From contig CM075987.1 of the NCBI GenBank assembly GCA_038087875.1, positions 27,344,001-27,408,000 of the forward strand: a stretch of DNA of 64,000 nucleotides, in the 5' to 3' direction. The translations under genes were made by a program, and so were the position numbers. The notes under the pieces are model-generated. The model was given only the letters and a program-made list of their open reading frames with translations, had not been told where the DNA came from and did no database searches. Positions 28,393-57,624 of this stretch are shown one piece after another (the first letter of the stretch is position 1; the number at the start of each line of letters is the position of its first letter). The stretch is from Malacoraja senta. Taxonomy: Eukaryota.

Positions 28393-28719
<327 letters not shown>

Positions 28720-29839: not shown

Positions 29840-30124
<285 letters not shown>

Positions 30125-30699: not shown

Positions 30700-32230
30700 T
30701 GATAGCAGGTAGAATAGTGCAACCTTCCTCCTGCAGGATGTGTGAAGTCAGGGAAACCGCTGGTATCCCTGATGACTACACGTGGGGACAGTATCCAGCT
30801 GCAGCTCCTCACACTCCGCATTCAGGAACAGGTGCTGCAGCCGGATGACCTCAGGATCACCCGGTAGAATGAACTTCATAGATAGGAGTTAAAACATTCA
30901 TGACTCTCGACTCCTTTGGATACTGTTGATGGGGATGATCAGCAGTAACAGTCAGGTCTGTGTTTGGATACTGTTGATGGGGATGAGCAGCAGTAACAGT
31001 CAGGTCTGTGTTTGGATACTGTTGATGGGGATGAGCAGCAGTAACAGTCAGGTCTGTGTTTGGATACTGTTGATGGGGATGACAGCAGTAACAGTCAGGT
31101 CTGTGTTTGGATACTGTTGATGGGGATGAGCAGCAGTAACAGTCAGGTCTGTGTTTGGATACTGTTGATGGGGATGACAGCAGTAACAGTCAGGTCTGTG
31201 TTTGGATACTGTTGATGGGGATGAGCAGCAGTAACAGTCAGGTCTGTGTTTGGATACTGTTGATGGGGATGAGCAGCAGTAACAGTCAGGTCTGTGTTTG
31301 GATACTGTTGATGGGGATGACAGCAGTAACAGTCAGGTCTGTGTTTGGATACTGTTGATGGGGATGAGCAGCAGTAACAGTCAGGTCTGTGTTTGGATAC
31401 TGTTGATGGGGATGACAGCAGTAACAGTCAGGTCTGTGTTTGGATACTGTTGATGGGGATGACAGCAGTAACAGTCAGGTCTGTGTTTGGATACTGTTGA
31501 TGGGGATGAGCAGTAGTAGCAGTCAGGTCTGTGTTTGGATACTGTTGATGGGGATGACAGCAGTAACAGTCAGGTCTGTGTTTGGATACTGTTGATGGGG
31601 ATGACAGCAGTAAGTCAGGTCTGTGTTTGGATACTGTTGATGGGGATGACAGCAGTAACAGTCAGGTCTGTGTTTGGATACTGTTGATGGGGATGACAAC
31701 AGTAACAGTCAGGTCTGTGTTTGGATACTGTTGATGGGGATGACAGCAGTAACAGTCAGGTCTGTGTTTGGATACTGTTGATGGGGATGACAGCAGTAAC
31801 AGTCAGGTCTGTGTTTGGATACTGTTGATGGGGATGACAGCAGTAACAGTCAGGTCTGTGTTTGGATACTGTTGATGGGGATGAGCAGTAGTAGCAGTCA
31901 GGTCTGTGTTTGGATACTGTTGATGGGGATGAGCAGTAGTAACAGTCAGGTCTGTGTTTGGATACTGTTGATGGGGATGACAGCAGTAACAGTCAGGTCT
32001 GTGGCACGGAGCCTGTTTCCGAGTCACCGTGGGCAAGGGAAATGTCAGGTAGACCCATAATGGTCTGAAAAAGGGCCTCGACCCGAAGTGTCACCTATTC
32101 CTTTTCTCCAGAGATGCTGCCTGACCCACTGAATTACTACTGCACTTTGTGTCTGTCTGTGGTAGAATACTTGTTAGTTAGCGGGGCAGCAATCTAGACT
32201 CCAGGATGGTGGGTTGCCTCCCTGGTGCCT
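30700..32230 (+). mobile_element. Old CR1 ORF1 remnant hosting a minisatellite
   Basis: SSCRMCEVRET..PDDYT...QLQLL zinc-finger-like remnant upstream, CLPGA remnant at ~32213. Confidence 0.6.
30914..32003. repeat. 47/48-bp minisatellite, ~23 copies
   Basis: Unit tttggatactgttgatggggatga(g)cagcagtaacagtcaggtctgtg. Confidence 0.97.
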
Positions 32231-32290
32231 GGAAGCCCAAGTGACTGCATGAAGAAAATAACTGTAGGAATCAACTGCAGATGCTGGTTG

Positions 32291-34690: not shown

Positions 34691-36159
34691 AACTGAAGAT
34701 ACTCAAAATGCTGGAGTAACTCAGCAGACAGGCAGCATCTCTGGACAGAAGGAAAGGGACTCAACCCAAAATGTCACCCATTCTTTCTATCCAGAGATGC
34801 TGCCTGTCCCACTGAGTTACTCCAGCATTGTGTCTATCTTTGAAGAAAATAACTGATGGTTATTAATAACTGAGGCTCTATGGGTGGAGTTGAGGAATAT
34901 AAAAGGGATTGCCTTGACGGGAGTGTACCATAGGCTTCCAAACAGTCAACAAGAATTAGAATAACAAATATGCCAGTAGATTGCAGACAACTGCAAGATA
35001 AATAAGGTTGACATAATAGAGGATTTAAACGTCCCCAATATAGCATAGTGCCAAGGATTTAGACAGGGTGGAATTTGTCAAACATGTTAAGGAAACTTTC
35101 TTCAAGCAATATTTACAGGGGCAAAGCATGATCCACTCTTTGGAAATTGGGAAGAGCACGTGACTTAAGTGTCCATGGGCGAGCCTTTTGGGACCAGCAA
35201 CCACAATTCTATTAGCTTTAAAATAGTTATGGATAATGCCAGGGCAGGCCCACAAGTTAAACTCTGAATTGGAGCAAGGCCAACTTTGAAGGTATTAGAC
35301 AGGAACTTGCTCAAGTTGATTGGAGGGTTTAAGGCAGGTACTATAACATTGATAAAACATTTGGACAGGTACATGGATACGAAAGGTTTAAAAGGACACG
35401 GGCCACATGGCAGGTGGGCAGTTTTCCAGATGGGGCATCTTGATCAGCAAGGGCAAGTTGGACTGAAGGGCCTGTTTCTGTTCTGTATGACTTGGAATAT
35501 TCTAAAGAATTTTGAAGATTTGAAGTCCGGTCACCGTTCATCCAACACATGTACCACAAACTCCTACTAACAGTGTGGAGGAACTAGATGTATATTTTTT
35601 AAATTCATGGATAAAACGCGCTCTTTTTGTTTTAAACAGTTGCGGTTGTAAGAAATGGAGTTGGGTTTATGGTCTAAAGCATGTGAATAATTTGAACACA
35701 CTGCAGGCTGATAACAGCAGACAGTTGCACGTTTCAGAGATAACCAGAACAGAGCAGATAATGGAACACTGTATCAATCAACATGTGTTATTTAATTGAG
35801 AATGCCTCTGAATTGGTCATGTCTTTGAATACAGTTACCATTGAGCTGGTGTGGGAAGTTATACATGTGTATAACTGTGTACCAGGCATGAGGGAGTGTG
35901 GTCGAGTTTCTGGAAAACTGCCCATATTACAATTTCCCTTAATGTCAAGTCCAGTCATCGGCGCATGTAAAAAAAATGCGTTTAGAAAAATTGTGTTCAG
36001 GTACTTTTTCACCCACATAGAGATTTCTGAATTTTGTACTGACGAATTTCCCTTACCCCAAAGAGTTGCAAAGTGGGGAAGGCGTACTCGCCCTGGGACG
36101 CAGGGCAAGAGGAAAGGTTTTGCAAAGATTCTATCTTATTGTCACACAGTGGACACACA

Positions 36160-36585
36160 ACATATGATGAGCGTTTGACGGCACTGGGCCTGTACACAAA
36201 GTTTAGAAGAATGAGGGGGGACCTCATTAAAACGTACAGAATAGTGAAAGATCTGGATTGAATAGATGTGGAGAGGATGTTTCCACTTGTGGGAGAGTCT
36301 AGAACTTGAGGTCACAGCCTCAGAATTAAAGGACGTTGTTTAGGAAGGAAATGAGGAGGAATTTCTTTGGTCAGAGGGTGGTGAATCTGTGGAATTCTTT
36401 GCCACAGAGGGCTGTGAAGCGCGTCAATGGATAATTTGAAGGCAGAGATAGATTCTTGATTAGTACAGGTGTCAGGTGTTATGGGGAGAAGGCAGGAGAA
36501 TGGGGTTAGGAGGGAGAGATAGATCAGCCATGATTGAATGGTGGAGATGACTTGATGGGCCGAATGGCCTATTTCTGCTCCTTAC
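36160..36585 (+). mobile_element. CR1 3' fragment
   Basis: YDERLTALGLY..FRRMRGDLI, RVVNLWNSLP and CR1 3'UTR. Confidence 0.85.
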
Positions 36586-37701
36586 CACTTATATATGACC
36601 TTAAAGCTCTGTGCAACCAAATATACTGGTGTCATCAGATTCCTCCACTTTGATATCTTAGCAAATTAGTCTAGCACAATCAATTAAAATCACTAGCACC
36701 CATTAAATAGCAAGATAAATTGGAGGAAATTTCAATCTTCAGGCTCGCCAAAGACTGAATAGTTTCAAATTTCAATAATTGTGCAGAAGATACATGTCAC
36801 AAAAAGTTGCATCTCCTCCATTCCAATCTGAGTTAACTGACCTTCATTAATTTAACATTAAAAATTAGTCATGGAAGGAAAAGTGCCTTCAGAATTCTTA
36901 AAGGGGAGATGCAAACTGGATCTATCAGTGGAATCTTATTGAAAGTGACAGAATCTGAATGTAGGGGATATTTGAACAACGCCTTGAGAGCCCTGTCATC
37001 TCTGGATAGTGGAAATCAATGGTCAAGGAAAGCAGGTGATTTTCATTGTTCCGATTTGGGAATTATGACAATAAACCACCCTTGACCTTAAAGTCATTGA
37101 TGTGGAGAAATAACTCCACATTTCAAAGCAGAAATAAAATGCAGACAGAATTAGAAGCAAGGTGGGAGAGGTGTAGAGAAAATACATGCCAGAGCCGGTG
37201 GATGTCCAGAAAGGGAACTGTCAGAAGTAGACAATATTCAGCAAATTCTTGCAATTTCCTACAATTATGTGGAAAATTACTGGGATGAGAAGAAACATTA
37301 AACACTAAGTCAGAACGAGTTTCCCCAACACATTTCAAGTGGAATTGCTTGTTTTTTAAAGTGAATCAAAATATTGCATGGGGAGGCAGAAAATTAGGGA
37401 TAGAAAGGAGGCTCATGTGGCAAAATTTACTTAGGACAGGCTGCTGGGTTTTGGGGTGAGCAGGCACATTGCACAAAAGGATAATGGACATTTAACAGCC
37501 TAGCTTAATAGAAATGGCACTAAACATACACAGCAATCTTATTTACTGCTATCTTTAAAATATGCAAATCACTTTTACAGGCCTTTACCCAATAAACAGC
37601 ACTAGCTTTTATTCACTAAATATAAAAGAGGCTTTATTCACTAGTTCTGCTGACAAGTGCATCTTCATATGGGATTTAGTTTGGCATCAGTCAACAACTA
37701 T

Positions 37702-38115
37702 GATAGACACAAAATGCTGGAGTAACTCAGCGGGACAGGCAGCATCTCTGCAGAGAAGGAATGGGTGACGTTTCGGGTCGAGACCCTTCTTCAGACTGAT
37801 GTCAGGGGAGTGGGCTGTATAGAGATAAAATGTAGTTGGAGACAGTTAGACGGGTCAGACAACTGGGAAGGGGGAGGGGGTGGAGAGAGAGGGAAAGCAA
37901 GGGCTACTTGAAGTTCAAGAAGTCAATGTTCATACCGTTGGGATGTAAGCTACCCAAGTGAAATACGAGGTGCTGTTCCTTCAATTTACGCTGGGTCTCA
38001 CTCTGACAATGGAGGAGGCCCAGGACAGAAAGGTCAATGTGGGAATGGGAGGGGCAGTTAAAGTGTTGAGCAACCGGGGGATCAGGTAGGTTCAGGCAGA
38101 CTGAGTGGAGGTGTT
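37702..38115 (-). mobile_element. Penelope-like terminal fragment
   Basis: GIY-YIG C-terminal LKEQHLVF..GSL.P.GMNID remnant and hammerhead motif 37767-37794. Confidence 0.8.
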
Positions 38116-38601
38116 CTATGCTTGCTCTCTCAGAACTGTGGTAGGTTTTATGTATATGCAGACAGAAAGGGGATCAATTTTCTGGCTTAGGAACTGTCAG
38201 AAGAGTTTTAAACACTCCACATAACATCCCAGTAATGAGGTGCTAGTTCTAGTTTCACAACAAATCCTGACCTACTACTAAACAAATCACCATTGGGTTA
38301 ATGCTAACGCCATGAAGTATCTTTGATGCTATCAAATAATGACCGAAGATGCAGACTAAAGATTGAAGTATAGTTAGTATTTTAGGAAGGACCAGCAAAA
38401 TTGTTGTGCAGCACTCTTAAACAAGAGAACAGCCACATGTCCAAATTTAAGCAAGATTCCAGCATCTACAGTCTTGTGTCCACATTTCCAAGCTGGTGGC
38501 CAATACTAATCAAGGAGGGATTGAGTGTGCATTGGAAGATGTAGTGGCTTCGGAAGGATATGGATAAGCATCAAGCAACACTATCATTACTGTGGTACTC
38601 A

Positions 38602-38712
<111 letters not shown>

Positions 38713-39905
38713 TTAGGAAAAGGGCAAACAGCATATAAAAGTTTACAGATGATTTTATAGAACCAGGAGAAAACCTTCCACCCAGAAACCCATCCACTAT
38801 TCAAATAGGTTCCAAATAATTCAATCAATTCATTCGCTAGGTTTTTCCAGGCGATCTAGGACCAATCAGAAATGTTCATGGCTTCCTTAAATGTAGGCAA
38901 AATTGTAGTCGAACCAGAAATCGTGACATCCTGCAAACAATTTCTTGTTCGACTACAAAGCGAGTGACTACTGAATCCAGTCACATCGACAACACGCATG
39001 TTCTCAAAAGACAAAACCAGGAGTTATTTTTTCCATCCAAATGCAAATTCTGGTATTCCAATGCCAGCTTACTTGGCTGAAGTGAACCAGTTACGAACCC
39101 CAACACACACAGAAATACTCTCAAGCCAATTCCGCATATTTGAAAAAAATATCAGGTGTATACGGATAAATTCATCACACTGTTCACTTTATAACCTTGC
39201 AAGAAGCTGTGTCTTTGAAATATTAAAATCTAATACCAAACACAAATAATTATGTAACCACATTTAATACTTCCAAAAATACAAAAGATCTTGCCCAAGT
39301 TGGCGAAACACCTTGAAGAAGGGTCTTGACCCGAAACATCACATATTCCCTTTCTCCAGAGATGCTGCCTGACCCAGAGTTACTCCAGCATTTTGTGTCT
39401 ATCTTTGAGGAAGCATTCACTGCCATAACGTGAGCTAATGGGTGAGTATCTGTGATGGCAACTGCCTGCTGAAAGAAAGCCTTAGCAGAAATTCATTCTG
39501 AAATGTTGGCACATCTTTCAGGGTATCCCACGCAAAGCAAGATGGCCAACAGCCAGACATGGATCCTAGTGAGATGAGACAGAAACCCATTGGTCAGTTT
39601 TGTAAGGGGCAGTGAATCATCCAGTTGATGGAAAGTTATATTTCTCGATCAAATCATTTGTTTGGCCATATGATCTGCAAACAGGTGCAACTACAAATGT
39701 GGGTTTGGATTTTGCCCCCTTCCTAGTTGAATTAATAGCAATCACAAAATAAATGAGCCAAGCAGTGGAATGGAATCCATATTTAGGAGCAGCTGATCTT
39801 TAGGGCAATTCTGACACTGCTCCATTAATAGTTATCTCTTGTATTAACAGTGAAAGTAATTTGAATGCAAGTTACATTTCTCAGTGTTTTCACATGCCTG
39901 CTTAC

Positions 39906-39965
39906 CTCAAAGGTATAATTCTCCACCATTGGGATGTCTTGCTCATCTATCAGTGTGTATTTAGT
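39906..39965 (-). CDS. ZMYND19: ZMYND19 exon 2
   Basis: ttcag|TKYTLIDEQDIPMVENYTFE|gtaagc; 60 nt. Confidence 0.97.
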
Positions 39966-42900
39966 CTGAAAATGAAAAACAATACTGTTAGGTCCATTTT
40001 TTTGTTAAGAACGGCAATTAGAAATATTAGTTTGTTGCGCATAGAGAAAATCTACACACCATCTCATAATAGAACAGCACTTTTGGGGAAGATAAGCAGT
40101 GTTTGCATGTATTTCTGAGTGAAGCCTTGCCCAACAGAAAATTGGACTGGGCATGAATTTATCTGGGGAATAATGAAGATGATGTAAAGGAACTGCAGAT
40201 GCTGGTTATACAACGAAGATAGGCGACGTTTCTGAAGTTCTCAATCCGAAATGTTATAATTTTCTTCTCTCCAGAAATGCTGCCTGTCCCACTGAGTTAT
40301 TCCAGTATTTTGTGTCTCTCTTCAGTGACATGAAGATTTTTAAACTCCACATTCACTCATTTTATCATCCCAGATTTGTATTTGATTAAAAGTATCTGCC
40401 ACCCACAGCACAAGTTGACAGTGAAGTCCCTGGTGCCCTATTGCAGGACCAAGCTTGATCGTGACACTTGGTTTAATCAAGCCACTCTAAAGCTCGAGTC
40501 CCATGGGTTGTCAACACCACCCCTTCCTGATTTATATGTGCCCTATCCCATGACCATTTTTGAATGATAGGCCCACCAAGCCACAGTCTATGCAAAAATA
40601 TAGTAAATCACACTTGTACATTCCTAAACCATGGACCACTCAACTTTATTTATTTTTGCTGATCTCAGATTTAGTAACTTGATCCAAATTTAGGCAGTAG
40701 AGTTACAATAGATGTGTAGGAAGGAATTGCAGATGCTGATATAAATCGAAGATAGACACAAAAAGCTGGATGAGATTGAATCAAATATGTGTTCAAGTTA
40801 CTATATGTTCTTCTTGCCTCTCTCCCTTCTTGAACAGCAGTGTAACATTTCCAATTTTCCAGTCTTCGGGAACCACTACTGATTCTAGTGATTCTTGAAA
40901 GATCTCTACTAATGCCTTCACAATCTCTAAAGCCACCTCTTTCAGACCATAGGTGCAAGAGTAGGTCATTCGGCCCTTCGAGCCAGCACCGCCATTCAAT
41001 GTGATCATGACTGATTATCCGCAATCAGTGCCCCTTTCCTGCCTTCTCACCATATCCCTAAGAGCTCTATCTAACTCTCTTTTGAATGCATCCAGTGAAT
41101 CGCCCTCTACTGTCTTCTTTAGCTGAGAATTCCACAAATTTACAACTCTGTGTGAAAAAAGTAATATTTTCTGTAACAAACCCAGATTTGGAGGGACAGG
41201 AGCCCAACTTCTCCCACTTTGAGTTCTGTGTTTAGGAACAAACGACAACATTTCATAAGCCATTTGGATTACTTTCCAAACTATAGAGGACTCGCATGAC
41301 CTTTGGACTTTCTTCAACTCATTATCTTAAAAGCTTTTGTCTCTCCCTTTAAGGTTCAAGATAGATAACATTACATTTGCTATAAATGCATCAGTTATTC
41401 AAATTCCTTAGTATCTCTAATTTAATACTTTCTTCAACACGGCTTATAAAGGATCCATCTTTGTTTTATTTTCCAATTTAGGATGCAGTTTACTATTCCA
41501 TTATCTGTGCTAAAGAACAGATTAAAGCAATGAATGAATAAAGCAATAACATGCTACATAGTTGAGTAACTGCCCTTCAAAAAGCACAAGATTCATCAGT
41601 TGACCAATTTTAAATGGATCTATGCAAGCTCGCTGATCAACTGAAACATTTCAGGATGTTCACTCCCTATTGTTAATTATAAACTGTAGTAATTTTCCAG
41701 GCAACAGATGTTGGACTAATGGATCTGATATTTCCCTGGATTCCCTTTCACCTTTCTGAGATAGCAGTGACATCGACTGTTTTGCTTATTAATGGAATGA
41801 TTCACACATTGAGATAACTTTGTAGGTGCTCTGGGTATAAGCATCCAAAGTTCTCATTTACTTCCATTAAAATCCAGAGATTTAAACCATCTGGTCCTGG
41901 GATATGTCACTCTTTAGTGCCATTAACACCATTGTTATTGTTCTGTTTATAAAAATTTGGCAAACATGTGCCTCAATTCCATCAATTTTCTTGTAAAAAT
42001 GTTTATTTCATCCTTAGCATTGGTAAACTTTGTTTGAGATAAATACTGAACTAAGTATCACGTGTGTTCACCAATTCCCTAATCCCATTTACATCATTAC
42101 TGTTAATTATTTTTAAGAGAATTATCACCCCTTTTAATTTAAAAAGTTCTAATATTTAATGTTTGATCTTCTTAGACTCCCTTTGAGTCTTGATAACCTT
42201 CTGCTGTTTCTTGTCCTATTCTTAAGTCACTCAGATATACACTAGTTTTTGGTCTTGTCAGTTTAGTTTATTGTGTACCGAGGTACAGTGAAAAGCTTTT
42301 GTTGCGTGCTAACCAGTCAGCAGAAAAACAATACATAGAAACAAGATGCAAGAGTAGGCCATTCTAGCCAGCACCGCCATTCAATATGATCATGCTGATC
42401 ACTCAAAATCAGTACAGGGCAGTGGAGGCCAAAATCATTGGATGGATTTAAGAGTTAGATAGAGCTCTAGGGGCTATTGGAATCAAGCGATATGGGTAGC
42501 CATGATCACAATGAATGGTGGTGCTGGCTCGAAGGGCCGAATGGCCTCCTCCGGCACCTATTTTCTATGTTTCAAGCTTAACCTCCCCATTCTTGCACTC
42601 ACTGCCCCAATTAATGAAAGCCAGAATACCATTTGCCTTCTTAACCACATTATCTACCTACGCTGCCACCTTCAAGGGTCTTCAGACGTCAATACTCCCA
42701 AGGACTTTACCACTCAAGGTGTCTGTTCTAGTCTCATTAGTGAGCCTAAAATGCACAATTGCTCCAGTTTCTTTCCAACATACAAATTACTTGCTGTGCG
42801 ATTAAATGGCCACTGTAAATCACCCCATATCTTGTTAAATGTCAAAAGAATCAAAAGATATTGACAGCCACGTGACAGAGAATAAGTTACAGTATTAACG

Positions 42901-43227
42901 GAAAATAAGGGGAGAATATGATTAATAGGAATGCTGTGTGGGAATCTGATGGGCAAAATCATCTTTTTCCAGATTGCCATGCCAATAGCACCTGCAACAC
43001 TGGCAAGATGGATCCCAAGGACATGATGTGGCCACGGACAGTGAGGTACTGTACAATGCATGGCATGATAGTACATGGTAGACTACTGCCTTAGTGCGAG
43101 AGCTGAGTTCGGGCTTCCTGACTACGGATTCCTGACAACGGGCGCTGCCCATGCTAAAATTGTATTCCCCGTGGGGCATGTAGATTTTCTCTGGGTGCTC
43201 AAATTTCCTCCAACATGCCACCTCCAA

Positions 43228-44145
43228 CAGACATGGGGGGAGATGGGAAGATGTGGCGAGTGGTGGGGTCACGTTGGAGGTGGCGAAACTGACGGAGGAT
43301 AACTTGTTGTATGTGACGGCTGGTGGGGTGAAAGGTGAGAACAAGTGATCCTCCGTCAGTTTCGCCACCTCCAACGTGACCCCACCACTCGCCACATCTT
43401 CCCATCTCCCCCCATGTCTGCCTTCCGCAAAGACCGCTCCCTCCGTAACTCCCTTGTCAATTCTTCCCTTCCCTCCCATACCACCCCCTCCCCTGGTACT
43501 TTCCCTTGCAACCGCAAGAGATGCAACACTTGTCCCTTCACCTCCCCCCTCTACTCCATTCAAGGACCCAAGCAGTCGCTCCAGGTGCGACAGAGGTTCA
43601 CCTGCATCTCCTCCAACCTCATCTATTGCATCCGCTGCTCTAGATGCCAGCTGATCTACATCGGTGAGACCAAGCGGAGGCTTGGCGATCGTTTCGCCGA
43701 ACACCTCCGTCGGTCCGCAATAACCAACCTGACCTCCCGGTGGCTCAGCACTTCAACTCCCCCTCCCATTCCGTATCTGACCTCTCTGTCCTGGGTCTCC
43801 TCCATGGCCACAGCGAGCAACACCGGAAATTGGAGGAAATGCACCTCATATTCCGCTTGGGCAGTCTACATCCTGGGGGCTTGAACATTGAATTCTCCCA
43901 ATTCTGCTAGCCCTTGCTGTCCCCTCCCCTTCATCAGCCATCTGGTTGTCTCCTCCCCTCCCCCAGCCCTCGGGCTCCTCCTCCGCCTTTTTCCCTTTCT
44001 TCTCCCCACCCCCTATCAGTCTGAAGAAGGGTTTCGGCCCGAAACGTTACCTATTTCCTTCGCTCCATAGATGCTGCTGCACCCGCTGAGTTTCTCCAGC
44101 ATTTTTGTGTACCTTCGATTTTCCAGCATCTGCAGTTCCTTCTTT
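43228..44145 (+). mobile_element. Penelope-like 3' fragment (GIY-YIG) with an inverted 5' segment
   Basis: C..KRCNTCPF, NLIYCIRCSRCQLIYIGETKRRLGDRFAEH; inverted arms 43228-43300 and 43348-43420; hammerhead motif 44021-44048. Confidence 0.9.
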
Positions 44146-45321
44146 AACACAATGATCATCCATAGCCAGAATACAGGACCAGTTGCCAAGCAGTTCTAGA
44201 GACATTCGGCAAACATAGAAAATAGGTGCAGGAATCGGCCATTCGGCCCCTCGAGCCATTCAATATCATGGCTGATCATCCAAAATAAGTACGCCGTTCC
44301 TGCTTTCCCCCCATATCCCTTGATCCTAGGAGCTAAATCTAACTCTCTCTTAAAACCACAGCAGAGGCAGCAAAGCCAGAGTTGAAACTCCTTTTGTACA
44401 CTTACCTTTCATGAGATGCTGCCTGACCCTGAGTCACGACAGCATTTTGTGCCTACCTGGTGTAAACCAGCATTTGCAGTTCCTTGTTATTACTTCGATC
44501 TAAGCTACAGAGTGGATGAAGTTAGAACCGGCAAGATAGACACAAAATGGTGAGACGGGTGAAGAAGGGGTCTTGACCCGAAACATCACCCATTCCTTCT
44601 CCCCAGAGATGTTGCCCGCCCCGCTGAGTTACTCCAGCTTTTTGTGTCTACCTTGGGTGTAGTAGAGCAGTAGCTGCAGTCCCTTGAGCGGGCGGGCAGG
44701 CAGCGGCCAGAGCTCACACGTTGTGTGGAAGCCGGGGCAGCGGGCTGCTGGAGGAGGGCGGGGCAGAGAGACAAGACATGTGCTCCCAGTCCCACACCTC
44801 GACCGGCCACCTGAAATGGCGGGCAGCCCACCCTCCACACCGGGCAGAGGCAGCATGTGGCCGGGCAGAGGCAGCCTGGCGGTTGGGGAAGGGGAAAGAC
44901 AGAAAGACAGACAGACAGACAGACAGACAGAGCGCTCGGCCGCCAGCCTGTTCCCGGGGAGAAGCCACATGGCGGAGGGAGCACGAACATGGCCACCGGG
45001 GAGAGAGAGAGAGAGAGACGCCAGCACCGGGGAGGGAGGGAGGCCACATGGCGAGGTGCCGCCCAGCGAGTGGGTGAGGGACGGAGGGCACCGGTCTCCC
45101 GCCCTTCTTACCTCAGCGCCCGCCCGGCCGCCCCCGTCCCCTCCCCTCCCGCCCGCCGCTTCAGTCCCCCTTGGCCGGCCGGCCGGCGTCCCTCAGTCCC
45201 TCAGCCGCCGCCGCTCACCTTGCCGCCCCGCCTCAGCCCTAGACATAGACCGGCCTCAGTTGCCGCTGTCTCCTCTTCCTCTTCCTCCCCCCCCCTGTGA
45301 TTCCCCGCCGCCGCCGCTCAC

Positions 45322-45372
45322 CTTGCCGGCCGCCCGGCCGAGCCGCACGATGCCCAGCTTGAAGTCCGACAT
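45322..45372 (-). CDS. ZMYND19: ZMYND19 exon 1 (coding part)
   Basis: gcc[20 protein letters not shown]|gtgagc; the six exons total 684 nt = 227 aa plus stop. Confidence 0.97.
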
Positions 45373-45650
45373 GGCGCTTCCCCGCCCCGCCCCCCCAACC
45401 CCACGCACGCGCGCGCAAGCACACGGGCACGAGCACGGCCTCCTCCCCCTCCCCCTCCCCCTCCCGCTCCCGCCCGCGCGCGCGCCCGCCCGGCCCCGCA
45501 AACCCCTTCCGGAGCGCCGCCGCAGCCAATCGTGCCCCGTCACACGGGGCAACCGTTGCCATGGTGACGTCAGTTTCGCGGGAAGCTTCCCAGGTGGGTG
45601 CGGGTTGCCCCGCCGGCGTCCGCCTTCAAATCACCTGCTCCAGACCACTC
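45373..45650. promoter_or_regulatory. CpG-island promoter of ZMYND19, possibly bidirectional
   Basis: CCAAT 45526; X-box-like GTTGCCATGGTGAC 45555-45568; TGACGTCA 45565-45572; TTTCGCGG 45574. Confidence 0.75.
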
Positions 45651-49287: not shown

Positions 49288-49309
49288 ATGGACAGAGCCG
49301 AGAGTGCAG
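49288..49309 (+). CDS. STPG3-like gene, putative first coding exon (exon 49271-49309)
   Basis: ttcag|...ATG MDRAESA G|gtaagc; phase 1 joins exon 50504. Confidence 0.5.
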
Positions 49310-49489
49310 GTAAGCCAGTGTATCTCTAAACAAATCCAGAGAAAGCCCACGCGATCACAGGGAGATCGGTTACCTACACAGTGAGTGAATGATTTCAAGG
49401 CCACTCCAGATTAATGCCACTCCAGCCCCAAACAATGTTCATGTTTCATTTCAATGAACTTTCATCAAACCTGTTTTTTTTATCCACGT

Positions 49490-50042
49490 TGCACTTGCAC
49501 CTCCTCCAACCTCATCTCATCTACTGTCTCCGCTGTTTCAGGTGTGGGCTCGTATATATATATAGCGGTGAGACCAAGCGCAGGCTCAGCGAACGTTTCG
49601 CTGAACACCTCCACTCAGTCCGCCTAAGCCTATGCGATCTCCCAGTTGCTCAACTCTTTAACTCCCCTTCCCATTCCCACTCTGACCTGAGCCTCCTCCA
49701 CTGTCAGAGTGAGGCCCAGCGCAAACTGGAGGAACAGCACCTAATATTTTGCTTGAACAGCTTACACCCCAACAGTATGAATATTGATTTCTCTAACTTC
49801 AAGTAACCCTTGCTTTCCCTCTCTCTCCGTCCCTCCCCCACCCTAGTTCTCCAACTAGTTTCATTGTCCTCCTCATTAATTTTACTGATTGTATGCCTCA
49901 TTGTCACCGCCCCCTCAGCCAACAAGGAACCATTCTACATACTCTTGATCATGGTCTGCTTTGATCTGTAATTTTCATGCACCACCTTTGCATATCGCTC
50001 GTCTCTCTCTCCCCTGACTCCCAGTCTGAAGAAGGGTCTTGA
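49490..50042 (+). mobile_element. Penelope-like GIY-YIG 3' fragment
   Basis: LIYCLRC..CG.VY..GETKRRLSERFAEH...LEEQHLIF..MNIDFSNFK. Confidence 0.85.
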
Positions 50043-50503
50043 CATAGATACATAGACAATAGGTGCATGAGAAGGCCATTCGGCCCTTCGAGCCAGCACC
50101 GCCATTCAATATGATCATGGCTGATCATCCACAATCTGTACCCCGTTCCTGCCTTCTCCCCATATCCCTTGATTCTGCTATCTTTAAGAGCTCTATCCAA
50201 CTCTCTTTTGAAAGCATCCAGTGAATCGGCCTCCACTGCCGTCTGAGGCAGAGAATTCCACAGATTCACAAGTTTACATGATGATTATGGAGAGACTTAT
50301 ATTGGTTGGGAAAAACTCTCTCTTAAAATCGCATCCAGGCCTTTGTTATGTACATCTGATAGATCGTTAGTTTGACAGATCATTAGTTTAATATCTCATC
50401 CGTGAGACATCTTCAACTCCACAGCACACTGTTCAAAGGAAGATGTGTGTTATTGCAAGTGCTGTGAATGGTTAATGTTGACATTGCTCGCTTGCCTCTC
50501 TAG

Positions 50504-50951
50504 TGACAGCCAACTCAAGGATGAAGGTGGTGATCAATCTTCCCAGAACTGAGTCTTCATTTGAGGACTTCACCCAGGGAAGATCCAGGGACATCAAGCC
50601 GCACGTTGGTGGTAGGGGCTCCTATTTGCACATGGCCTTAAATAAAGAGGAACATGCCTTGGATGAAGATGGTGCCAAGGGCGACGCAGCTCCACCCACC
50701 CTGAAGAAACCGCGGCGTAAGGTATCTTTCCTGGACGTAGACCCCATGAAAGGAGATGAGCCTCCTGGGACCATCGTCCCTGGTTGTGACCAGATGAACA
50801 AAGCCAATAAGGTGCAGCAACTGACAAAGCCACAGACTCGGCATCTCCCGGATGGACCACTCCGTAACGTACCGCCCAACCTTGCCGGCTGTGACAAGCC
50901 GACAGATCCGAACCAACCTCTCAATGTCCAGCGCCTCCAGTTGGGATCAAG
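50504..50951 (+). CDS. STPG3-like gene exon B
   Basis: ctctctag| 448-nt open non-repeat exon (VTANSRMKVV...KKPRRKVSF...LGS AG|gtacaa), phase 1 to 2. Confidence 0.7.
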
Positions 50952-51109
50952 GTACAAAGACAATGAGTGACCTTCAAAGTGTGTCAGAGTGGCTTGGTTT
51001 GGTTTATTATTGTCACGTGTACCGAGGTGCAGTGAGAAACCTCATTGTCACGTGCTATCCAGTCAGCGAAAAGAATATATATGATCACAATCAAGCCGTC
51101 CACTGTAAA

Positions 51110-51415
51110 GGGGCGGCACGGTGGCACAGCGGAAGAGTTGCTGCCTCACAGCGCCAGAGACCCGGGTTCCATCCTGACCACGGGTGCTGTCGGTACGGAG
51201 TTTGTACGTTCTCCCTGTGAGCACGTGAGTTTTCTCCGGGTGCTCCGGTTTCCTCCCACATTCCAAAGACGTGCAGGTTTGTAGGTTAATTGATCTCAGT
51301 ATGTTGTAAAAACATTGTCCTTAGTTGTGAGTAGGTTAGATCACTGGTCGGTGCCGACTCAATGGATCTAACGGCCTGTATTACACCCAGTATCTCTATA
51401 GTCCAAAGTTTAAAC
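51110..51415 (+). mobile_element. tRNA-derived HE1/V-SINE-like SINE (similar copies at ~51771-52030 + and ~63445-63727 -)
   Basis: tggcacagcgg A box, ggttccatcc B box, central ctccggtttcctcccaca..ccaaagacgt. Confidence 0.75.
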
Positions 51416-51643
51416 AAAGGGCTTACCAGTTTCCAAAAACATGTTGACATTGCAGGTGCCGTCATTAATGCACATCTTAGTTCATAAGATATTTTTAAGT
51501 TCACAACTTGGTCTTTCTATTCCCCATTCTGCTTTTAGAGAATCATATTAGAAACAAAACAAAACTATTTTTAAATGCGAGTTGTGAAAACAAATCTCTC
51601 TAATTCTAAAGCAGTGACTTGATTTTTTTTTCTTTGGTCTTAG

Positions 51644-51693
51644 GCGAGAAGCGAATGGGAACCTCAATCCTGTCCCCCTGTCTAAACCAGTCA
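51644..51693 (+). CDS. STPG3-like gene exon C
   Basis: Poly-T...cttag|G REANGNLNPVPLSKPV A|gtgagt; 50 nt, phase 2 to 1. Confidence 0.65.
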
Positions 51694-52695
51694 GTGAGTA
51701 TACCAGAAGCAGACCAGTGGATGGGTGGTGTTGGGTCGGTGAAGGCTGCAAAGTCCAATTGTAGTTATTGTGGCGACACAGTGGTGCAGCAGGTAGAGCT
51801 GCTGCCTCACCCGCCATTGACCCGGGTCCAATCCTGACCTCGGGTGCTGTCCGTGTGGAGTTTTCACACTCTCTATGTGTCCACGTAGGTTTCCTCCGGG
51901 TCTTCCGGTTTCCTCCCACGTCCCAAAGACGTGCGGGTTTGCAGGTTAACTGGCTCTCTGTAAATTGCCCCTTACTGTGTGTGGAGGGGATGAGAATGTG
52001 GGATACCATAGAACTTAGCGTGAACGAGCCATCAATCTTTCACCATTTAGCTTCACCTTTTTACCAATGTGAACGTCACCTTTTTCCGTATTAATTGACT
52101 GATTACAATTACTTACCCTATTGTTTTATTACTTTGTTGTCACGTGTACTTGGTAAAGTGAAATTCTTTGTTTTGCATACAGTATGCAAATAATCGCTAC
52201 ATAAAGGGCACAGACAAAGTTACAAAAAGTATTCAATATAGTCCCAATGCTCGCTCTTCCATCTCACCCTCACCCACATACACTCCCAACCCCACTTCCA
52301 CCACCCCTTTCACCCCCACCCACACCCACTCCCAATCCCCACCTCCCCTTTCACCCCCACCTCCACTGTCCCCCACCTAAGATCCATTTTCCTGCACCAA
52401 CCACAGATCTTTCTTTCCCCGTCCTCCTTCACTCCCTGCTGGGTATCTCTTTGTCAAATTTTTGACGGTGGAGATAGATAGGTTTTTGATCGGTACGGGT
52501 GTCCGGGGTTACGGGGAGTAGGCAGGAGAATGGGGTTGAGAGGGAGAGATAGATCAGCCATGATTGAATGGCGGAGTAGACTCGATGGTGCCGATTGGCC
52601 TAATTCTGCTCCTGGAACTGATGAAGTGATGAACATCCATCATTCTCCATGTAGATGAAGCAGACGGCCTGACTATGTGAATGTATTTATTCCAG

Positions 52696-52781
52696 GGGTG
52701 GGGAGTCAAGCATCGTGGCAGTGGGACCTGCAACAACCCCGCGACCCTTTTATGAGGAAGATACCCAATGTCACTGTGAAG
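52696..52781 (+). CDS. STPG3-like gene exon D
   Basis: ttccag|GG VGSQASWQWDLQQPRDPFMRKIPNVTVK|gtgggt; 86 nt, phase 1 to 0. Confidence 0.7.
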
Positions 52782-53060
52782 GTGGGTGCCCAAAATCCTA
52801 ACACACTTGCAATAAAAACAACCTATATCCAGTATAGTCTTTAGCCTGTGTAAGAAAGAACTGCAGTTGCTGCTTTAAACCGAAGATGGACACACAATGC
52901 TGGAGTAACTCAGCAGGACAGGCAGCATCTCTGGAGAGAAGGAATGGGTGATGTATCGGGTCGAGAACCTTCCTCTGACCAGATCTGAATCGTCACCCAT
53001 TCCGTCTCTCCACAGATCCTGTCTGACCCGCTGAGTTACTCCAGCTTTTTGTGTCTGTAG

Positions 53061-53352
53061 TCTTTAGTCTGCTACCTATCCTCATCTGCAGCTACTTTGT
53101 GTGTATGTCCACACCCGGATCACAGTCCCCAGCTCACTTGTTGCTAGTGGAAGTCTTTACAACACACACACCAAAACAGACGTTTATTTCTCCTCTGTGA
53201 ATTGTTTCAAAGAAATGAACATCCCATGCCAGCTGTATTTCCTTTTTTTTTAATGCACTTTAATTGTGCTTATAAATAATTTTCTTTCAGTTCCAGTATA
53301 TTTCACTTTACTGATCCCCATTGAATTTGCACCCAAAACACAAACATGTTTA
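53061..53352 (+). repeat. 292-bp segment duplicated at 63152-63443
   Basis: Direct copy; 3 substitutions seen. Confidence 0.9.
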
Positions 53353-55976
53353 GTTCAGGAAGGTTTTAATCCGAAGATAGACACAAAAAGCTGGAGTAAC
53401 TCAGCGGGATAGGCAGCATCTCTGGAGAGAGGCATTCTGAAGAAGGGTCTCGACCCGAAACGTCACCCATTCCTTCTCTCCAGAGATGCTGCCTGTCCCA
53501 CTAAGTTACTCCAGCTTTTTGTGTCTATCTTCAACATATTTAGTTTAGTTTAGTTTATTGTCACAAGCACCGAGGTACCGTGAAAAGCTTTTGTTGTAGA
53601 AACATAGAAAAATACGTGCAGGAGGAGGCCATTCGGCCCTTCGTGCCATTACCGGCATTCAATATGATCATGGCTGATCATCCAGAATCAGTACCCCGTT
53701 CTTGCTTTCTCCCCATATCCCTTGATTCCCTTAGCCCTAAGATCTATATGCAGCTCTCTCTTGAATACATTAGTCACTAGTGTCTGAGGAAAGGTTTGTG
53801 TGCTATCCAGTCAGCGGAAAGACAATACATGATTACAATCGAGCCATTGGCAGTGTACAGATACATGATCTCCTTCCTGTACTCCATCTCATCATTATTT
53901 GCTTTACGGCCCACAATTGTGGTGTCATGCGCGGATTTGTAAATTGGACAATTTTTACATTGATACCAAACGTTGTGAATAAACGCTTTCTTTATTCAGG
54001 CATTATAGGTTAGATATACATGCACGTTTATTCCTCTCACACAAAGGTCATTGTTGCTGCTGCGAGGTTGTTGCTCCTGCTGAGGTGGCAGGACACTCAC
54101 ACGAAGAGAGAAGAAGAGGAAGAGAGAGGGGGGGAAGGTTGACCCGGGGTTCGTTAAATACTAAGGCACACCCCCATACCCCATGACAACTCCTTCCCGC
54201 CATTACCCACTCACGTCACCCTATCCCCGACTGCTGAGGGTTCGTGTAGCAAGTGGCCCACCCACCAGGTGGCGCCACAGAGGATGTTCAGACTGAAGAA
54301 GGGTTTCGGCCCGAAATGTTGCCTATTTCCTTCGCTCCATAGATGCTGCTGCACCCGCTGAGTTTCTCCAGCACCTTTGTCTACCTTCGATTTTCCAGCA
54401 TCTACAGTTTCTTCTTAAACATAATATACTTACACTGGCATTGATAACAGTGCAGAGCCAGCTTCATTTTGGTTCTAATTCCTACAGTTTAGTTGAGTTT
54501 AGTTTATTGTCACGTGTACCGAGGTACAGTGAAAAGCTTTTGTTGCGTGCTAACCAGTCAGTGGAAAGATAATACATGATTACAATCGAGCCATCCACAG
54601 TGTACAGATACACAATAAGGGAATAACGTTTAGTGCAAGGTAAAGCCAGCAAAGTCTGATCAAGGATAGTCCCAGGGTCCCCAATGAAGTAGATAGTAGT
54701 TCAGGACCGCTCTCTGGTTGTGGTAGGATGGTTCAGTTGCCTGATAACAGCTGGGAAGAAACTGTCCCTGAATCTGGAGGTGTGCGTTTTCACACTTCTG
54801 TACCTTTTGCCTGATGGGAGAGGGGAGAAGAGGGAGTGGCCGGGGTGCGACTGGTCCTTGATTATGCTGCTGGCCAATACGGACAGTACAGTACTGATTG
54901 GGAGAAACCTTGTCTGCTGGGAAATTTTAGTTTCGTTAAGTTTAGTTTATTATTATTGTCACGTGTACCGGGGTCCAGCGATAAGCTTTTTTGTTGCGTG
55001 CTATCCAGTCAGCGGAAAGACTACATGATTACAATCAAGCCGTCCACAGTGTGGAGAATAAGGATAAAGGGAACAACATTCGGTACAAGGTAAAGTCAGA
55101 TTAATAATAGTTGAAAAGCTCTCCAATGAGGTAGATAGCAATTCAGGATGGTTCAGTTGCCTGATAACAGCTGGGAAGAAACTGTCCCTGAATCTGGACA
55201 TAAGCATTTTCATACTTCTCTACCTGTTCATTTGTCTGTTTATTTATTGAGTATACGTGCATGTGTATATATACACACCAAACCTTTTTTCTCCGTTATG
55301 TACCAAGTTTACATATTCTGTTGTGCTGCAGCAAGTAAGAATTTCATTATCTTATCAGGGAATATGACAATAAAACACTCTTGATTCTTGCCTGATGGGA
55401 GAAAATGGAGTGACTGGGGTGAGACTGGTCCTTGATTACGCTACTGGCTTGCCCGAGGTAGTGTGAGGTGTTGATGGAGTCAATGGAAGGGAGATTGGTT
55501 TGTGTGACGGTCAAGGTGGGTTTTGAAATGATGTCTGAGCACTCGAATAGTGAAAGGCCTGGATAGAGTGGATGTGGAGAGGATGTTTCCACCAGTAAGT
55601 GAGTCCAGGACCAGAGGTCACAGCCTCAGAATAAAAGGTCGTACCTTTAGGAAGGAGTTGAGGAGGAATTTCTTTAGTCAGAGGGTGGTGAATCGGTGGA
55701 ATTCATTGCCCAGAAGGCTGTGGAGGCCAAGTCAATGGATATTTATAAGGCAGAGATAGATAGATTCTTGATTAGTGCGGGTGTTGGGGGTTATGGGGGG
55801 AAGGCAGGAGAATGGGGGTGGGAGGGAGAGATAGATCAGCCATGATTGAATGGTGGAGTAGACTTGATGGGCCGAATGGCCTGACTCTGCTCATAGAACT
55901 TCTGAACATGAGCACGCCATTGGTGTTTGCGGGGTACTGTGGTAACTAAAGGCAGCTTTGTTTCTCCCTCCTGTAG

Positions 55977-56076
55977 TGGGTGAGCGCATCGTGTTACCCC
56001 CGGCAACCACTGCTCATCCCCCAGCAGCTGGCCAGCCCACTGTATCCACGCTACACCATGGGGCAACAGATTCACG
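55977..56076 (+). CDS. STPG3-like gene exon E
   Basis: cctgtag|WVSASCYPRQPLLIPQQLASPLYPRYTMGQQIH G|gtaagg; 100 nt. Confidence 0.75.
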
Positions 56077-56411
56077 GTAAGGCAAAACCCTCGGAAAACA
56101 ATGTTGCCCCCGAGATATTACTGCATCTGCAAACGGCAGGTGAACGATCAATGCAACATCGTCATATTCCTCTGCTCACCTCCACTGACCTCCTATAGTT
56201 TAGTTTAGAGATACGGCGCGGAAACAGGCCCTTCGGCCCACCGGGTCCGTGCCGACCAGTGATTGCCGACTATTAACACTATCCCACACAAACACTAGGA
56301 CAATTTTTACATTGATACCAACCCAATTAACCTACATACCTGTACGTCTTTGGAGTGTGGAAGAAAACCAAATATTCGTACGGCTGGGTTGCCAGCCTAC
56401 ACTAACCCTAA

Positions 56412-56731
56412 TAGCCCTGTCCCACGGTACGAGTTCATTCCAAGAGCTCTCCCGAGTTTAAAAAAAATCTAACTCGTGGTCAGCACGGAGAATGAACGTA
56501 GCGGGCACGTCGGAGCTCGGGGACGTCTCTTAGTGCTAACGGCAGGTACTCGGGAAGACTCGCTAACGGCAGGTAAGCTCGGGAAGACTCGTGAAGATTT
56601 TTCAACATGATGAAAAATGTCCACGAGAGCCCCGAGTACCGACGAGCGGCCATTACCGTAAATCTCCGAGTTCGAATCAGGGCAAACTCGGGAGAGCTCT
56701 TGGAATGAACTCGTACCGTGGGACAGGGGTT
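56412..56731. mobile_element. Harbinger-type MITE
   Basis: Perfect 45-bp IR 56415-56459 / 56684-56728 beginning CCCTGTCCCAC; TAA on both flanks. Confidence 0.8.
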
Positions 56732-56833
56732 TAAACCTAATGATTCCAGGCTACATCTCTAGAACTGTGACTCTATGTTCTCCCTGTCACAAACTGCACT
56801 TTGGGTCAACAAGGTCTTTGTTTGTTTTCCAAG

Positions 56834-56947
56834 CCTACTTTCCTCGTGCGCCACTGATGTACGACCTGGTCCCAGTCGAGCAGCTGCCATTGCAGCCCCC
56901 TGTCACTCACACCATGGGGCAGCGCTTGCCACGGATCTGGAACAGAG
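56834..56947 (+). CDS. STPG3-like gene exon F
   Basis: ttttccaag|CC YFPRAPLMYDLVPVEQLPLQPPVTHTMGQRLPRIWNR G|gtaaac; 114 nt. Confidence 0.75.
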
Positions 56948-57000
56948 GTAAACACGCCAGCATCACGCATCATGTGGGGCTCAGCGAACAGAGACTCCGT

Positions 57001-57215
57001 GTACATGCACATTACATACATGATCTCTGTAGGACTTTACATACATGATCTCTGTACATGCACATTACATACATGATCTCTGTACATGCACATTACATAC
57101 ATGATCTCTGTACACACACATTACATACATGATCTCTACATGCACATTCCATGTATGGTTTCTACATACAAGAACTCTGCTTACATGGACATCACATACA
57201 TGATCTCTGTGTACA
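57001..57215. repeat. ~28-bp tandem repeat, ~7 degenerate copies
   Basis: Unit gtacatgcacattacatacatgatctct. Confidence 0.85.
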
Positions 57216-57493
57216 AGGACATTCAAGTTAAAGTGTTTGGTAACCGGGAGATGGCGTAGACCAAGGCGGACCGAGCGTAGGTGTTCGGCCCCAGTCTGCA
57301 CTTGATTTGCTGATATATATTCAGTGAAACGATCGCCCAGTCTGCGTACGTTACACTTGTGTCGTGCTGCACTTGCGCCAGTGACGCAGGGGAGGTGCTG
57401 GGGAAACTGCAAGCGTTGACCACCTCCCCACAGCAGACGCCTGGAGCGTGTGTTGCTCTGGGTCCACTGTGACTTGTCATGTTGTTGTTTCAG

Positions 57494-57624
57494 GAGCACC
57501 AGTGAGACCATGTGCCTACCGCATGGACAGAGCCCCATCCATCATGAGCTGTCCTGGCTACATGAACACAGGGCCAAGCAGTGAGGACCATCCAGACATG
57601 GAAACATCCACAACCTTCTTATAA
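57494..57624 (+). CDS. STPG3-like gene exon G (terminal coding)
   Basis: gtttcag|GA APVRPCAYRMDRAPSIMSCPGY...TTFL*; 131 nt. Confidence 0.65.

What the first reader, a model, noticed from the sequence alone, without database searches (positions are those of the whole stretch)
49288..57624. Seven-exon plus-strand gene: divergent STPG3-like sperm-tail protein with an RVxF motif
Seen: seven non-repeat exons (22+448+50+86+100+114+131 = 951 nt), all GT-AG and all phase-compatible, give one 316-aa ORF. It contains two related repeats (P.YTMGQ.I and P..HTMGQRL) and a third degenerate PVRPCAY...APSIM. The D/E junction SWQWDLQQPRDPFMRK...K|WVSASCY resembles my recollection of human STPG3 (AWQ...SPFTQK...QK|WPSPAHY). 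The N-terminal half looks lineage-specific and carries KKPRRKVSF, which fits both the PP1-docking RVxF consensus and a basic NLS. Inference: a fast-evolving axonemal/sperm gene that automated annotation could miss or leave unnamed.
Basis: partly seen in the sequence, partly recalled or inferred. Interest (0 to 1): 0.72.

Follow-up and report, generated by a model that had tools for sequence, protein, structure and literature searches.

The report
Skate STPG3 with eroded microtubule repeats
This is a real seven-exon skate gene that is very likely the orthologue of the sperm-tail gene STPG3; its protein has lost every intact copy of the family's PGP microtubule-binding motif and carries a skate-conserved motif that might dock the phosphatase PP1, but it is otherwise an ordinary, already-predicted gene.

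Summary
Observation confirmed: seven GT-AG exons give one 316-aa frame. NCBI already predicts the gene, unnamed, in three other skates, and a 98%-identical protein lies on a 1,026-nt contig that must be intronless.

The STPG3 label holds. Stingray and shark orthologues bridge to coelacanth STPG3 (profile E=1.6e-18; shark vs coelacanth 40% over 241 aa). A shark+coelacanth profile scores the skate model 74.6 bits against at most 6.5 for shuffles.

Corrections: the large N-terminal exon is shared with sharks. The skate protein has no PGP motif and no Pfam SHIPPO hit, one repeat is missing, and three eroded repeats remain 36-37 aa apart. RKVSF occurs only in skates and ends a 41-aa block invariant at 40 of 41 sites versus about 64% elsewhere. 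PP1 binding, tissue of expression and microtubule binding are untested. Mouse Stpg3 knockouts are fertile (PMC7401030). Verdict: known gene, mildly unusual variant.

The parts
49288..49309 (+). Exon 1 coding part (ATG). Probably an alternative or internal exon: acceptor-like CAG at 49268-49270
   Evidence: same residues in Leucoraja X1 and Rhinoraja models; absent from Leucoraja X2 and Amblyraja models
50504..50951 (+). Exon 2 (448 nt): elasmobranch-wide N-terminal region, predicted disordered; conserved Met at 50521
   Evidence: (shark-only profile 27.6 bits vs max 4.6 of 500 shuffles)
50608..50730 (+). Skate-conserved 41-aa block (residues 43-83) ending in the RVxF-type motif RKVSF (50716-50730)
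   Evidence: 40 of 41 sites invariant in 5 skate proteins; best-window permutation p=0.0004; motif scan
51644..51693 (+). Exon 3; the first PGP repeat of coelacanth and Heptranchias STPG3 would follow here and is absent
   Evidence: no remnant found by tblastn in 49201-58000
52696..52781 (+). Exon 4, linker before repeat 2
55977..56076 (+). Exon 5: eroded repeat 2 (WVSASCY ... YTMG)
   Evidence: aligns with coelacanth LPSPFHY ... PSYTIG
56834..56947 (+). Exon 6: eroded repeat 3 (APLMY ... HTMG)
   Evidence: aligns with coelacanth APNWY ... HSIS
57494..57624 (+). Exon 7: eroded repeat 4 (RPCAY ... PGYMNT) and stop
   Evidence: aligns with shark PGPCTY/PGPCAY, the stretch that scores above the Pfam PF07004 cut-off in sharks
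45555..45572 (.). Perfect RFX X-box (45555-45568) overlapping a CRE palindrome (45565-45572) in the GC-rich promoter of the head-to-head neighbour; may or may not serve this gene
   Evidence: only exact X-box in 64 kb, 0.22 expected; only TGACGTCA, 0.58 expected; consensus patterns recalled
27861..45374 (-). Neighbour gene, ZMYND19-like (six coding exons), head-to-head with this gene; synteny marker
   Evidence: exons located; HNH_3-like and zf-MYND hits; gene name recalled
1546..12456 (-). Neighbour gene, DPH7-like WD40 protein (two coding exons located); synteny marker
   Evidence: (weak WD40 hits); gene name recalled

Best explanation
This spliced skate gene is very likely the orthologue of STPG3, and its predicted-disordered protein likely works as an accessory protein of the sperm tail that would lie along the outer surface of axonemal microtubules through three eroded PG-type repeats. 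Shown: the gene structure, the descent from STPG3, the loss of all PGP motifs and of repeat 1, and the retention of repeat tyrosines 36-37 aa apart. Inferred from relatives: expression in spermatids, a flagellar location, binding of one repeat per tubulin dimer (about 40 aa per 8 nm, as in Tetrahymena STPG1A) and a non-essential, fine-tuning role. Binding is probably weaker than in sharks because the PGP core is gone. The N-terminal RKVSF block may add PP1 docking (about 0.3); the main reading does not depend on it.
For: Chain of homology: skate profile to stingray E=1.6e-39, Heptranchias 8e-25, Chiloscyllium 2.8e-10 among 1.84 billion proteins. The elasmobranch C-terminal profile returned 7 hits at E<=10 among 1,386 candidates; the only non-elasmobranch hit was coelacanth C9orf173/STPG3 (85 bits, E=1.6e-18). 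The same profile gave at best 13.7 bits for a flagellar protein in PDB and did not reach CIMAP1A/1B at E<=10. Heptranchias vs coelacanth STPG3 is 40% identical over 241 aa, linkers and C-terminus included. A profile without skates scores the window model 74.6 bits vs max 6.5 in 500 shuffles; a batoid-only profile scores coelacanth STPG3 24.4 bits vs max 2.9. The tree groups batoids (100/98) and skates (100/99) as the species tree does. Linkage: the neighbours are ZMYND19- and DPH7-like; human DPH7, ZMYND19 and MRPL41 lie in 9q34.3 (PMC10765021), C9orf173 lies in the chr9 run TUBB4B-FAM166A-C9orf173-COBRA1-TOR4A-NRARP-EXD3 (PMC4074351), and NCBI files the Heptranchias protein under mL41. Function by family: the PG motif binds the outer microtubule wedge with about 40-aa spacers (PMC10105768); STPG3 appears only in the bovine and mouse sperm sheets of a cilia proteomics file (PMC11779644 supplement); it is testis-enriched and dispensable in mice (PMC7401030). 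Repeat tyrosines Y245 and Y283 are among only 8 invariant columns of 9 sequences.
Against: The skate protein has 0 PGP motifs and no Pfam family at E<=10, so the published binding motif is not met. Direct skate vs coelacanth similarity is weak (26% over 112 aa, E=5e-4 pairwise; hhalign probability 5.5%) and depends on shark intermediates. No tetrapod STPG3 sequence was retrieved, so the name rests on NCBI's label for one coelacanth protein. The tree has no paralogue outgroup. The search with coelacanth STPG3 found no STPG3 chain in PDB, only CIMAP1A/1B, so microtubule binding is inferred from paralogues. No tissue data for any elasmobranch. Gene order differs from human: directly beside ZMYND19 here, several genes away there.
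Confidence: 0.6

Rival explanations
1. Re-purposed STPG3: in skates the repeats no longer bind microtubules and the protein acts mainly as a PP1-targeting subunit in spermatids or sperm. It would dock through RKVSF and be switched off by phosphorylation of the Ser in the motif.
For: The motif matches the strict RVxF pattern (2.4% of shuffles), sits in a predicted disordered region, is present in 5 of 5 skate proteins and ends the most conserved block: 40 of 41 invariant vs 47 of 73 and 92 of 143 in the flanks. RVxF is in nearly 90% of validated PP1 regulators (PMC13545437). Human sperm STPG3 phosphorylation falls on capacitation (bioRxiv 10.64898/2026.06.22.733301).
Against: Absent from 3 of 3 sharks; the stingray model lacks that region. 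No SILK motif. The conserved block is mostly upstream of the motif and could be constrained for another reason. Repeat tyrosines and spacing are still conserved. No binding test.
Confidence: 0.2
2. Relaxed selection: a dispensable sperm gene drifting in batoids; the eroded repeats and the RVxF match carry no special function.
For: Long branches: about 0.98 changes per column from the shark/coelacanth node to the window vs 0.12-0.37 for sharks. Mouse knockouts are fertile. Loose RVxF matches arise in 17% of shuffles.
Against: The frame is intact in 5 of 5 skates and the stingray. The 41-aa block is far more conserved than chance allows (p=0.0004). There is no control gene for the branch lengths.
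Confidence: 0.12
3. A separate SHIPPO-family paralogue (CIMAP1/ODF3-like or an elasmobranch duplicate), not STPG3.
For: CIMAP1A/1B are detectable with the coelacanth protein and the 9-sequence profile; gene order differs from human.
Against: STPG3 scores 85 bits with the elasmobranch-only profile, which does not reach CIMAP1. Non-repeat linkers and the C-terminus align with STPG3. No second skate protein appeared.
Confidence: 0.05
4. A nuclear protein using KKPRRK as an import signal.
For: Basic cluster at residues 75-80, inside the conserved block.
Against: The pattern occurs in 20% of shuffles; mammalian STPG3 is in sperm proteomes.
Confidence: 0.03

Closest known systems
STPG3 / C9orf173 (coelacanth XP_005994519.1 and XP_014342984.1; mouse Stpg3)
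   Same: Collinear C-terminal repeats 2-4 with their linkers; same chromosomal neighbourhood as far as the recalled neighbour names go; similar size (316 vs 260-335 aa).
   Different: Repeat 1 is missing and no PGP is left (coelacanth has 2). The N-terminal 150 aa are not detectably related to either coelacanth N-terminus (75 and 593 of 1,000 shuffles score as well). Skate-only strict RVxF.
Unnamed skate loci LOC129712138 (Leucoraja erinacea), LOC116991063 (Amblyraja radiata), LOC144608364 (Rhinoraja longicauda)
   Same: The same gene, 73-94% identical and collinear.
   Different: Labelled 'uncharacterized'; they have one extra Ala at the exon 6/7 junction and differ in the start codon used.
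Shark orthologues (Heptranchias XP_067825649.1, filed under 'mL41'; Scyliorhinus XP_072343878.1; Chiloscyllium GCC36565.1)
   Same: Homologous exon-2 region and C-terminal repeats.
   Different: Keep 1-2 PGP motifs and pass the PF07004 cut-off; lack RVxF.
CIMAP1A/ODF3, CIMAP1B/ODF3B and Tetrahymena STPG1A/STPG2 (PF07004 proteins seen on doublet microtubules)
   Same: Distant paralogues with the same repeat unit and about 40-aa spacing.
   Different: They have intact PGP(G)xY motifs and structural evidence of binding; the skate protein has neither.

Membership tests
STPG3 orthologue group (by descent) | Best non-elasmobranch match is STPG3, well above other SHIPPO paralogues | tested here: met
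   85 bits for coelacanth STPG3; the same profile gave 13.7 bits for DMAP7 and no CIMAP1 hit at E<=10 in PDB. Word-index search; one bony-vertebrate hit only.
STPG3 orthologue group (by descent) | Collinear similarity outside the repeat cores | tested here: met
   Heptranchias vs coelacanth 40% over 241 aa; skate joined through profiles and shuffles.
STPG3 orthologue group (by descent) | Gene tree follows species tree, with paralogues as outgroup | tested here: inconclusive
   Topology fits the species tree, but no paralogue sequences were available as outgroup.
STPG3 orthologue group (by descent) | Conserved linkage with the human 9q34.3 block | tested here: inconclusive
   Neighbours have the domains of ZMYND19 and DPH7 (names recalled) and the human block is documented, but local order differs.
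STPG3 orthologue group (by descent) | Testis or sperm-restricted expression | not testable with these tools
   No tissue-labelled reads could be examined.
SHIPPO-rpt / PG-rich microtubule-binding proteins (PF07004) | Pfam PF07004 score above 20 bits | tested here: not met
   0 hits for 5 window exons and 3 full skate proteins and for the stingray. Met by Heptranchias, Chiloscyllium, Scyliorhinus X1 and coelacanth X2; coelacanth X1 19.3 bits.
SHIPPO-rpt / PG-rich microtubule-binding proteins (PF07004) | P-G-P-(G)-x-Y motif | tested here: not met
   0 PGP in 5 of 5 skates and the stingray; 1-2 in each shark and the coelacanth.
SHIPPO-rpt / PG-rich microtubule-binding proteins (PF07004) | About 40-aa spacing of repeat anchors | tested here: met
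   Anchor tyrosines at 209, 245, 282 (36 and 37 aa apart); benchmark from PMC10105768.
SHIPPO-rpt / PG-rich microtubule-binding proteins (PF07004) | No folded domain; extended chain | tested here: met
   AlphaFold2 of the Leucoraja orthologue: mean pLDDT 41.8, pTM 0.12, no helix or strand elements. A shallow 9-sequence alignment could also give this.
SHIPPO-rpt / PG-rich microtubule-binding proteins (PF07004) | Binds doublet microtubules | not testable with these tools
   Needs co-sedimentation or cryo-EM.
RVxF-type PP1 regulatory subunits | RVxF consensus in a disordered region | tested here: met
   RKVSF at residues 79-83; consensus patterns recalled.
RVxF-type PP1 regulatory subunits | Motif conserved across orthologues | tested here: inconclusive
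   5 of 5 skates, 0 of 3 sharks; coelacanth has only loose matches at unalignable positions.
RVxF-type PP1 regulatory subunits | Secondary docking motif (SILK tested) | tested here: not met
   No SILK match; other secondary motifs not tested.
RVxF-type PP1 regulatory subunits | RVxF-dependent binding to PP1 | not tested
   No PP1 sequence was held and no complex job was sent.

The most novel reading that the evidence does not exclude
In skates a sperm-tail microtubule-repeat protein has been converted into a phospho-switchable PP1-targeting subunit: the PGP cores eroded while a new, nearly invariant 41-residue docking module ending in RKVSF arose in the N-terminal exon. This would give skate sperm a lineage-specific phosphatase anchor and show that STPG-type repeats can hold their register without PGP.
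Probability: 0.2. Interest if true: 0.55.

Novelty: new variant of a known kind. Interest (0 to 1): 0.3.

Why it matters
It puts a name on unnamed or mis-filed elasmobranch gene models (one sits under the mitochondrial ribosomal protein mL41) and extends STPG3 to cartilaginous fishes, so to the jawed-vertebrate ancestor. The series coelacanth (2 PGP), sharks (1-2), stingray (GP remnant), skates (0) is a natural test of which residues a PG-rich repeat needs to bind microtubules. If RKVSF docks PP1, it would be a lineage-specific phosphatase anchor in sperm. The practical weight is modest, because the mouse gene is dispensable for fertility.

Tried and rejected
Pfam scans of window exons and skate proteins: nothing. 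PDB with the skate-only profile or Heptranchias alone: 0 hits. ESM Atlas with the skate C-terminus: no usable feature hit, structure rows TM<=0.35; with the shark C-terminus the 3 rows shown were PF07004 clusters at 0.95. Word-index searches with skate queries found only skates.

No whole genome is held, so paralogue search and wider synteny were not possible.

No remnant of repeat 1 in the introns (best E=0.19). No upstream coding exon matching the longer Rhinoraja N-terminus in 44001-49300. Homology of the coelacanth N-termini to exon 2 was not significant. MRPL41 was not found in 146 ORFs from 19.4-27.9 kb and 46.2-64 kb (146 of 147 listed, the exon-2 ORF left out) or by short recalled motifs. 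No AATAAA or ATTAAA within 700 nt of the stop.

RFX2 link: neither Stpg3, its recalled mouse alias nor Zmynd19 occurs in 4 supplements of PMC4498915, so the X-box cannot be assigned to this gene; with 1 mismatch X-boxes are at chance level. The human-mouse STPG3 alignment in the PMC7401030 supplement gave no sequence text. A PP1 complex prediction was not sent: no PP1 sequence was held and RVxF peptides tend to pass by likeness to solved structures. dN/dS was impossible without orthologue DNA.
Full report
OBSERVATION. The seven exons are at 49288-49309, 50504-50951, 51644-51693, 52696-52781, 55977-56076, 56834-56947 and 57494-57624 on the + strand. All six introns are GT-AG and the 951 nt give a 316-aa frame. 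Exons are free of window self-repeats while introns are 35-72% repeat. Exon 2 retrieved a Logan protein (P0001, 310 aa) and a Rhinoraja NCBI model. The P0001 cluster holds Leucoraja erinacea XP_055516332.1 and XP_055516333.1 and Amblyraja radiata XP_032905290.1, all 'uncharacterized'. The window model is 93-94% identical to these and 73% to Rhinoraja. P0001 needs 933 nt of a 1,026-nt contig, while exons 2-7 span 7,121 nt here. That contig is therefore intronless: most likely a spliced transcript of a close relative, though a retrocopy is not excluded, and its tissue is unknown. Two details differ from a simple reading. The other four skate proteins have an extra Ala at the exon 6/7 junction. 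The Met at 50521 in exon 2 is the start shared with several skate and shark models and has the better context.

IDENTITY. Skate proteins hit nothing in Pfam or PDB. A skate profile run over 1.84 billion representatives gave 5 hits at E<=0.001: the skate itself, stingray Hemitrygon (1.6e-39), Heptranchias (8e-25), Chiloscyllium (2.8e-10) and one repetitive contaminant that I dropped. The shark proteins pass the PF07004 SHIPPO-rpt cut-off; the stingray does not. A C-terminal profile of four elasmobranchs returned 7 proteins at E<=10 among 1,386 candidates: six elasmobranchs and coelacanth 'C9orf173 homolog' (E=1.6e-18), whose cluster mate is named 'protein STPG3'. Heptranchias and coelacanth STPG3 align at 40% over 241 aa. 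A profile of sharks and coelacanth only scores the window model 74.6 bits against at most 6.5 for 500 shuffles; a batoid-only profile scores coelacanth STPG3 24.4 bits against at most 2.9. Direct skate-coelacanth comparison is weak, which explains why the skate models are unnamed. Other SHIPPO proteins are much further away: the elasmobranch profile does not reach CIMAP1A/1B in PDB, and with the coelacanth added reaches CIMAP1A at 24.4 bits. A tree of the shared C-terminus (10 rows) recovers batoids and skates with strong support and long batoid and skate stems; it has no paralogue outgroup and no control gene.

SURROUNDINGS. On the minus strand lie a ZMYND19-like gene (27.9-45.4 kb, head-to-head with this gene; HNH_3-like and zf-MYND hits) and a DPH7-like WD40 gene. 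Both names are recalled. Human DPH7, ZMYND19 and MRPL41 are in 9q34.3 (PMC10765021, passages), and C9orf173 sits in the chr9 run ending NRARP-EXD3 (PMC4074351, passages). NCBI files the Heptranchias protein under mL41, probably a merged locus (inference). Linkage is thus consistent but local order differs. The GC-rich promoter at 45.4-45.6 kb has the only exact X-box in the window (0.22 expected) overlapped by the only CRE palindrome (0.58 expected). Each is unremarkable alone, and they may serve ZMYND19; mouse Stpg3 and Zmynd19 were not found in the RFX2 target tables searched (PMC4498915, supplements only).

ANATOMY. Coelacanth STPG3 has four repeat units, each a PGP-type core ending in Tyr followed about 20 aa later by a (P)xY[ST][IF]G-like half. 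Heptranchias keeps all four. In skates unit 1 is absent, with no remnant in the introns; it is also absent from the stingray and two shark models, so the loss may be older or partly a modelling effect. Units 2-4 survive as WVSASCY/YTMG, APLMY/HTMG and RPCAY/PGYMNT, with anchor tyrosines 36 and 37 aa apart, but no PGP remains. Exon 2 is homologous to the shark N-terminus (27.6 bits vs 4.6) but not detectably to either coelacanth N-terminus. Residues 43-83 are invariant at 40 of 41 sites in five skate proteins against about 64% elsewhere (permutation p=0.0004 for a 40-aa window, 0.002-0.035 for other window sizes; four of the five sequences are close kin, so this is mainly a comparison with Rhinoraja). 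The block ends in RKVSF, which fits the strict RVxF pattern (2.4% of shuffles) and is missing in the three sharks. AlphaFold2 finds no fold in the Leucoraja orthologue (pLDDT 41.8).

MECHANISM. In Tetrahymena the PG motif binds the outer wedge of doublet microtubules, one motif per tubulin dimer with about 40-aa spacers (PMC10105768, passages). CIMAP1 proteins occupy the outer surface of mammalian doublets (PMC11779644, passages). In that paper's proteomics file STPG3 occurs only in the bovine and mouse sperm sheets (one supplement file was unreadable). Mouse Stpg3 is testis-enriched, and knockouts have normal sperm and litters (PMC7401030, passages). A human sperm STPG3 phosphopeptide is 5.5-fold higher before capacitation (bioRxiv 10.64898/2026.06.22.733301, passages; its supplements are closed). 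I therefore read the skate protein as a non-essential sperm-tail accessory protein, likely still tracking microtubules through its eroded repeats (0.6 overall; orthology alone about 0.9). PP1 docking through RKVSF is about 0.3 in any form and about 0.2 as the main role. Every step from sequence to function is inferred.

NOVELTY. The gene is already predicted in public annotations. What I did not find in print is its identification as STPG3 in cartilaginous fishes, the PGP loss, or a PP1 link. The basis is the listings of searches for STPG3 (28 papers), C9orf173 (6), the recalled mouse alias (0), RVxF+sperm+PP1+testis-specific (3), skate testis transcriptome (8 of 9 listed) and elasmobranch sperm axoneme (12 of 23 listed); most were seen as listings only, and subscription journals are not covered. 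The scan's own notes held nothing on this gene. I file it as an STPG3 orthologue by descent, not as a canonical PF07004 protein, since the motif test fails. It is a mildly unusual variant of a known, dispensable gene: interest 0.3.

Noticed in passing
P0007/P0010-P0012 (Heptranchias perlo XP_067825649-654): NCBI names these STPG3-like proteins 'large ribosomal subunit protein mL41' isoforms, probably a merged gene model with neighbouring MRPL41. Isoform X5 skips the large N-terminal region, so exon 2 appears to be alternatively spliced in this shark.
   Followed up: partly
window 45555-45572: Perfect RFX X-box overlapping a CRE palindrome, with a CCAAT-like element just upstream (about 45526), in the head-to-head promoter. 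A donor-like CAG|GTGGGT near 45593 on the + strand could end a non-coding first exon of this gene, 3.7 kb upstream of exon 1.
   Followed up: partly
window 57491-57496: Exon 7 acceptor: the four other skate proteins have one more residue at this junction, suggesting a tandem (NAGNAG) acceptor whose upstream AG is absent in this genome.
   Followed up: partly
window 49257-49309 and exon 2: An out-of-frame ATG 31 nt upstream of the exon 1 ATG, on the intron side of the acceptor-like CAG; it would form an overlapping upstream ORF only if that stretch is retained in the mRNA.
   Followed up: no
window 20000-20480: CpG-rich island, likely the promoter and non-coding first exon of the DPH7-like gene, about 7.6 kb upstream of its first coding exon. 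On the minus strand it holds a 4-codon upstream ORF (about 20047-20061).
   Followed up: no
P0013 vs P0015 (coelacanth STPG3 X2 and X1): Two unrelated alternative N-termini; both isoforms carry loose RVxF-like matches (KVIKF in X2 only, KTIKW in both), at positions not alignable to the skate motif.
   Followed up: partly
window 15042-17887, 32292-34502, 58821-59855, 62057-62653: Several long, near-intact CR1-like LINE ORF2 copies (RVT_1 hit for 58821-59852), suggesting recent activity; also a 47-bp tandem array of 23 copies at 30915-32003 and a 30-bp array at 4798-5108.
   Followed up: no
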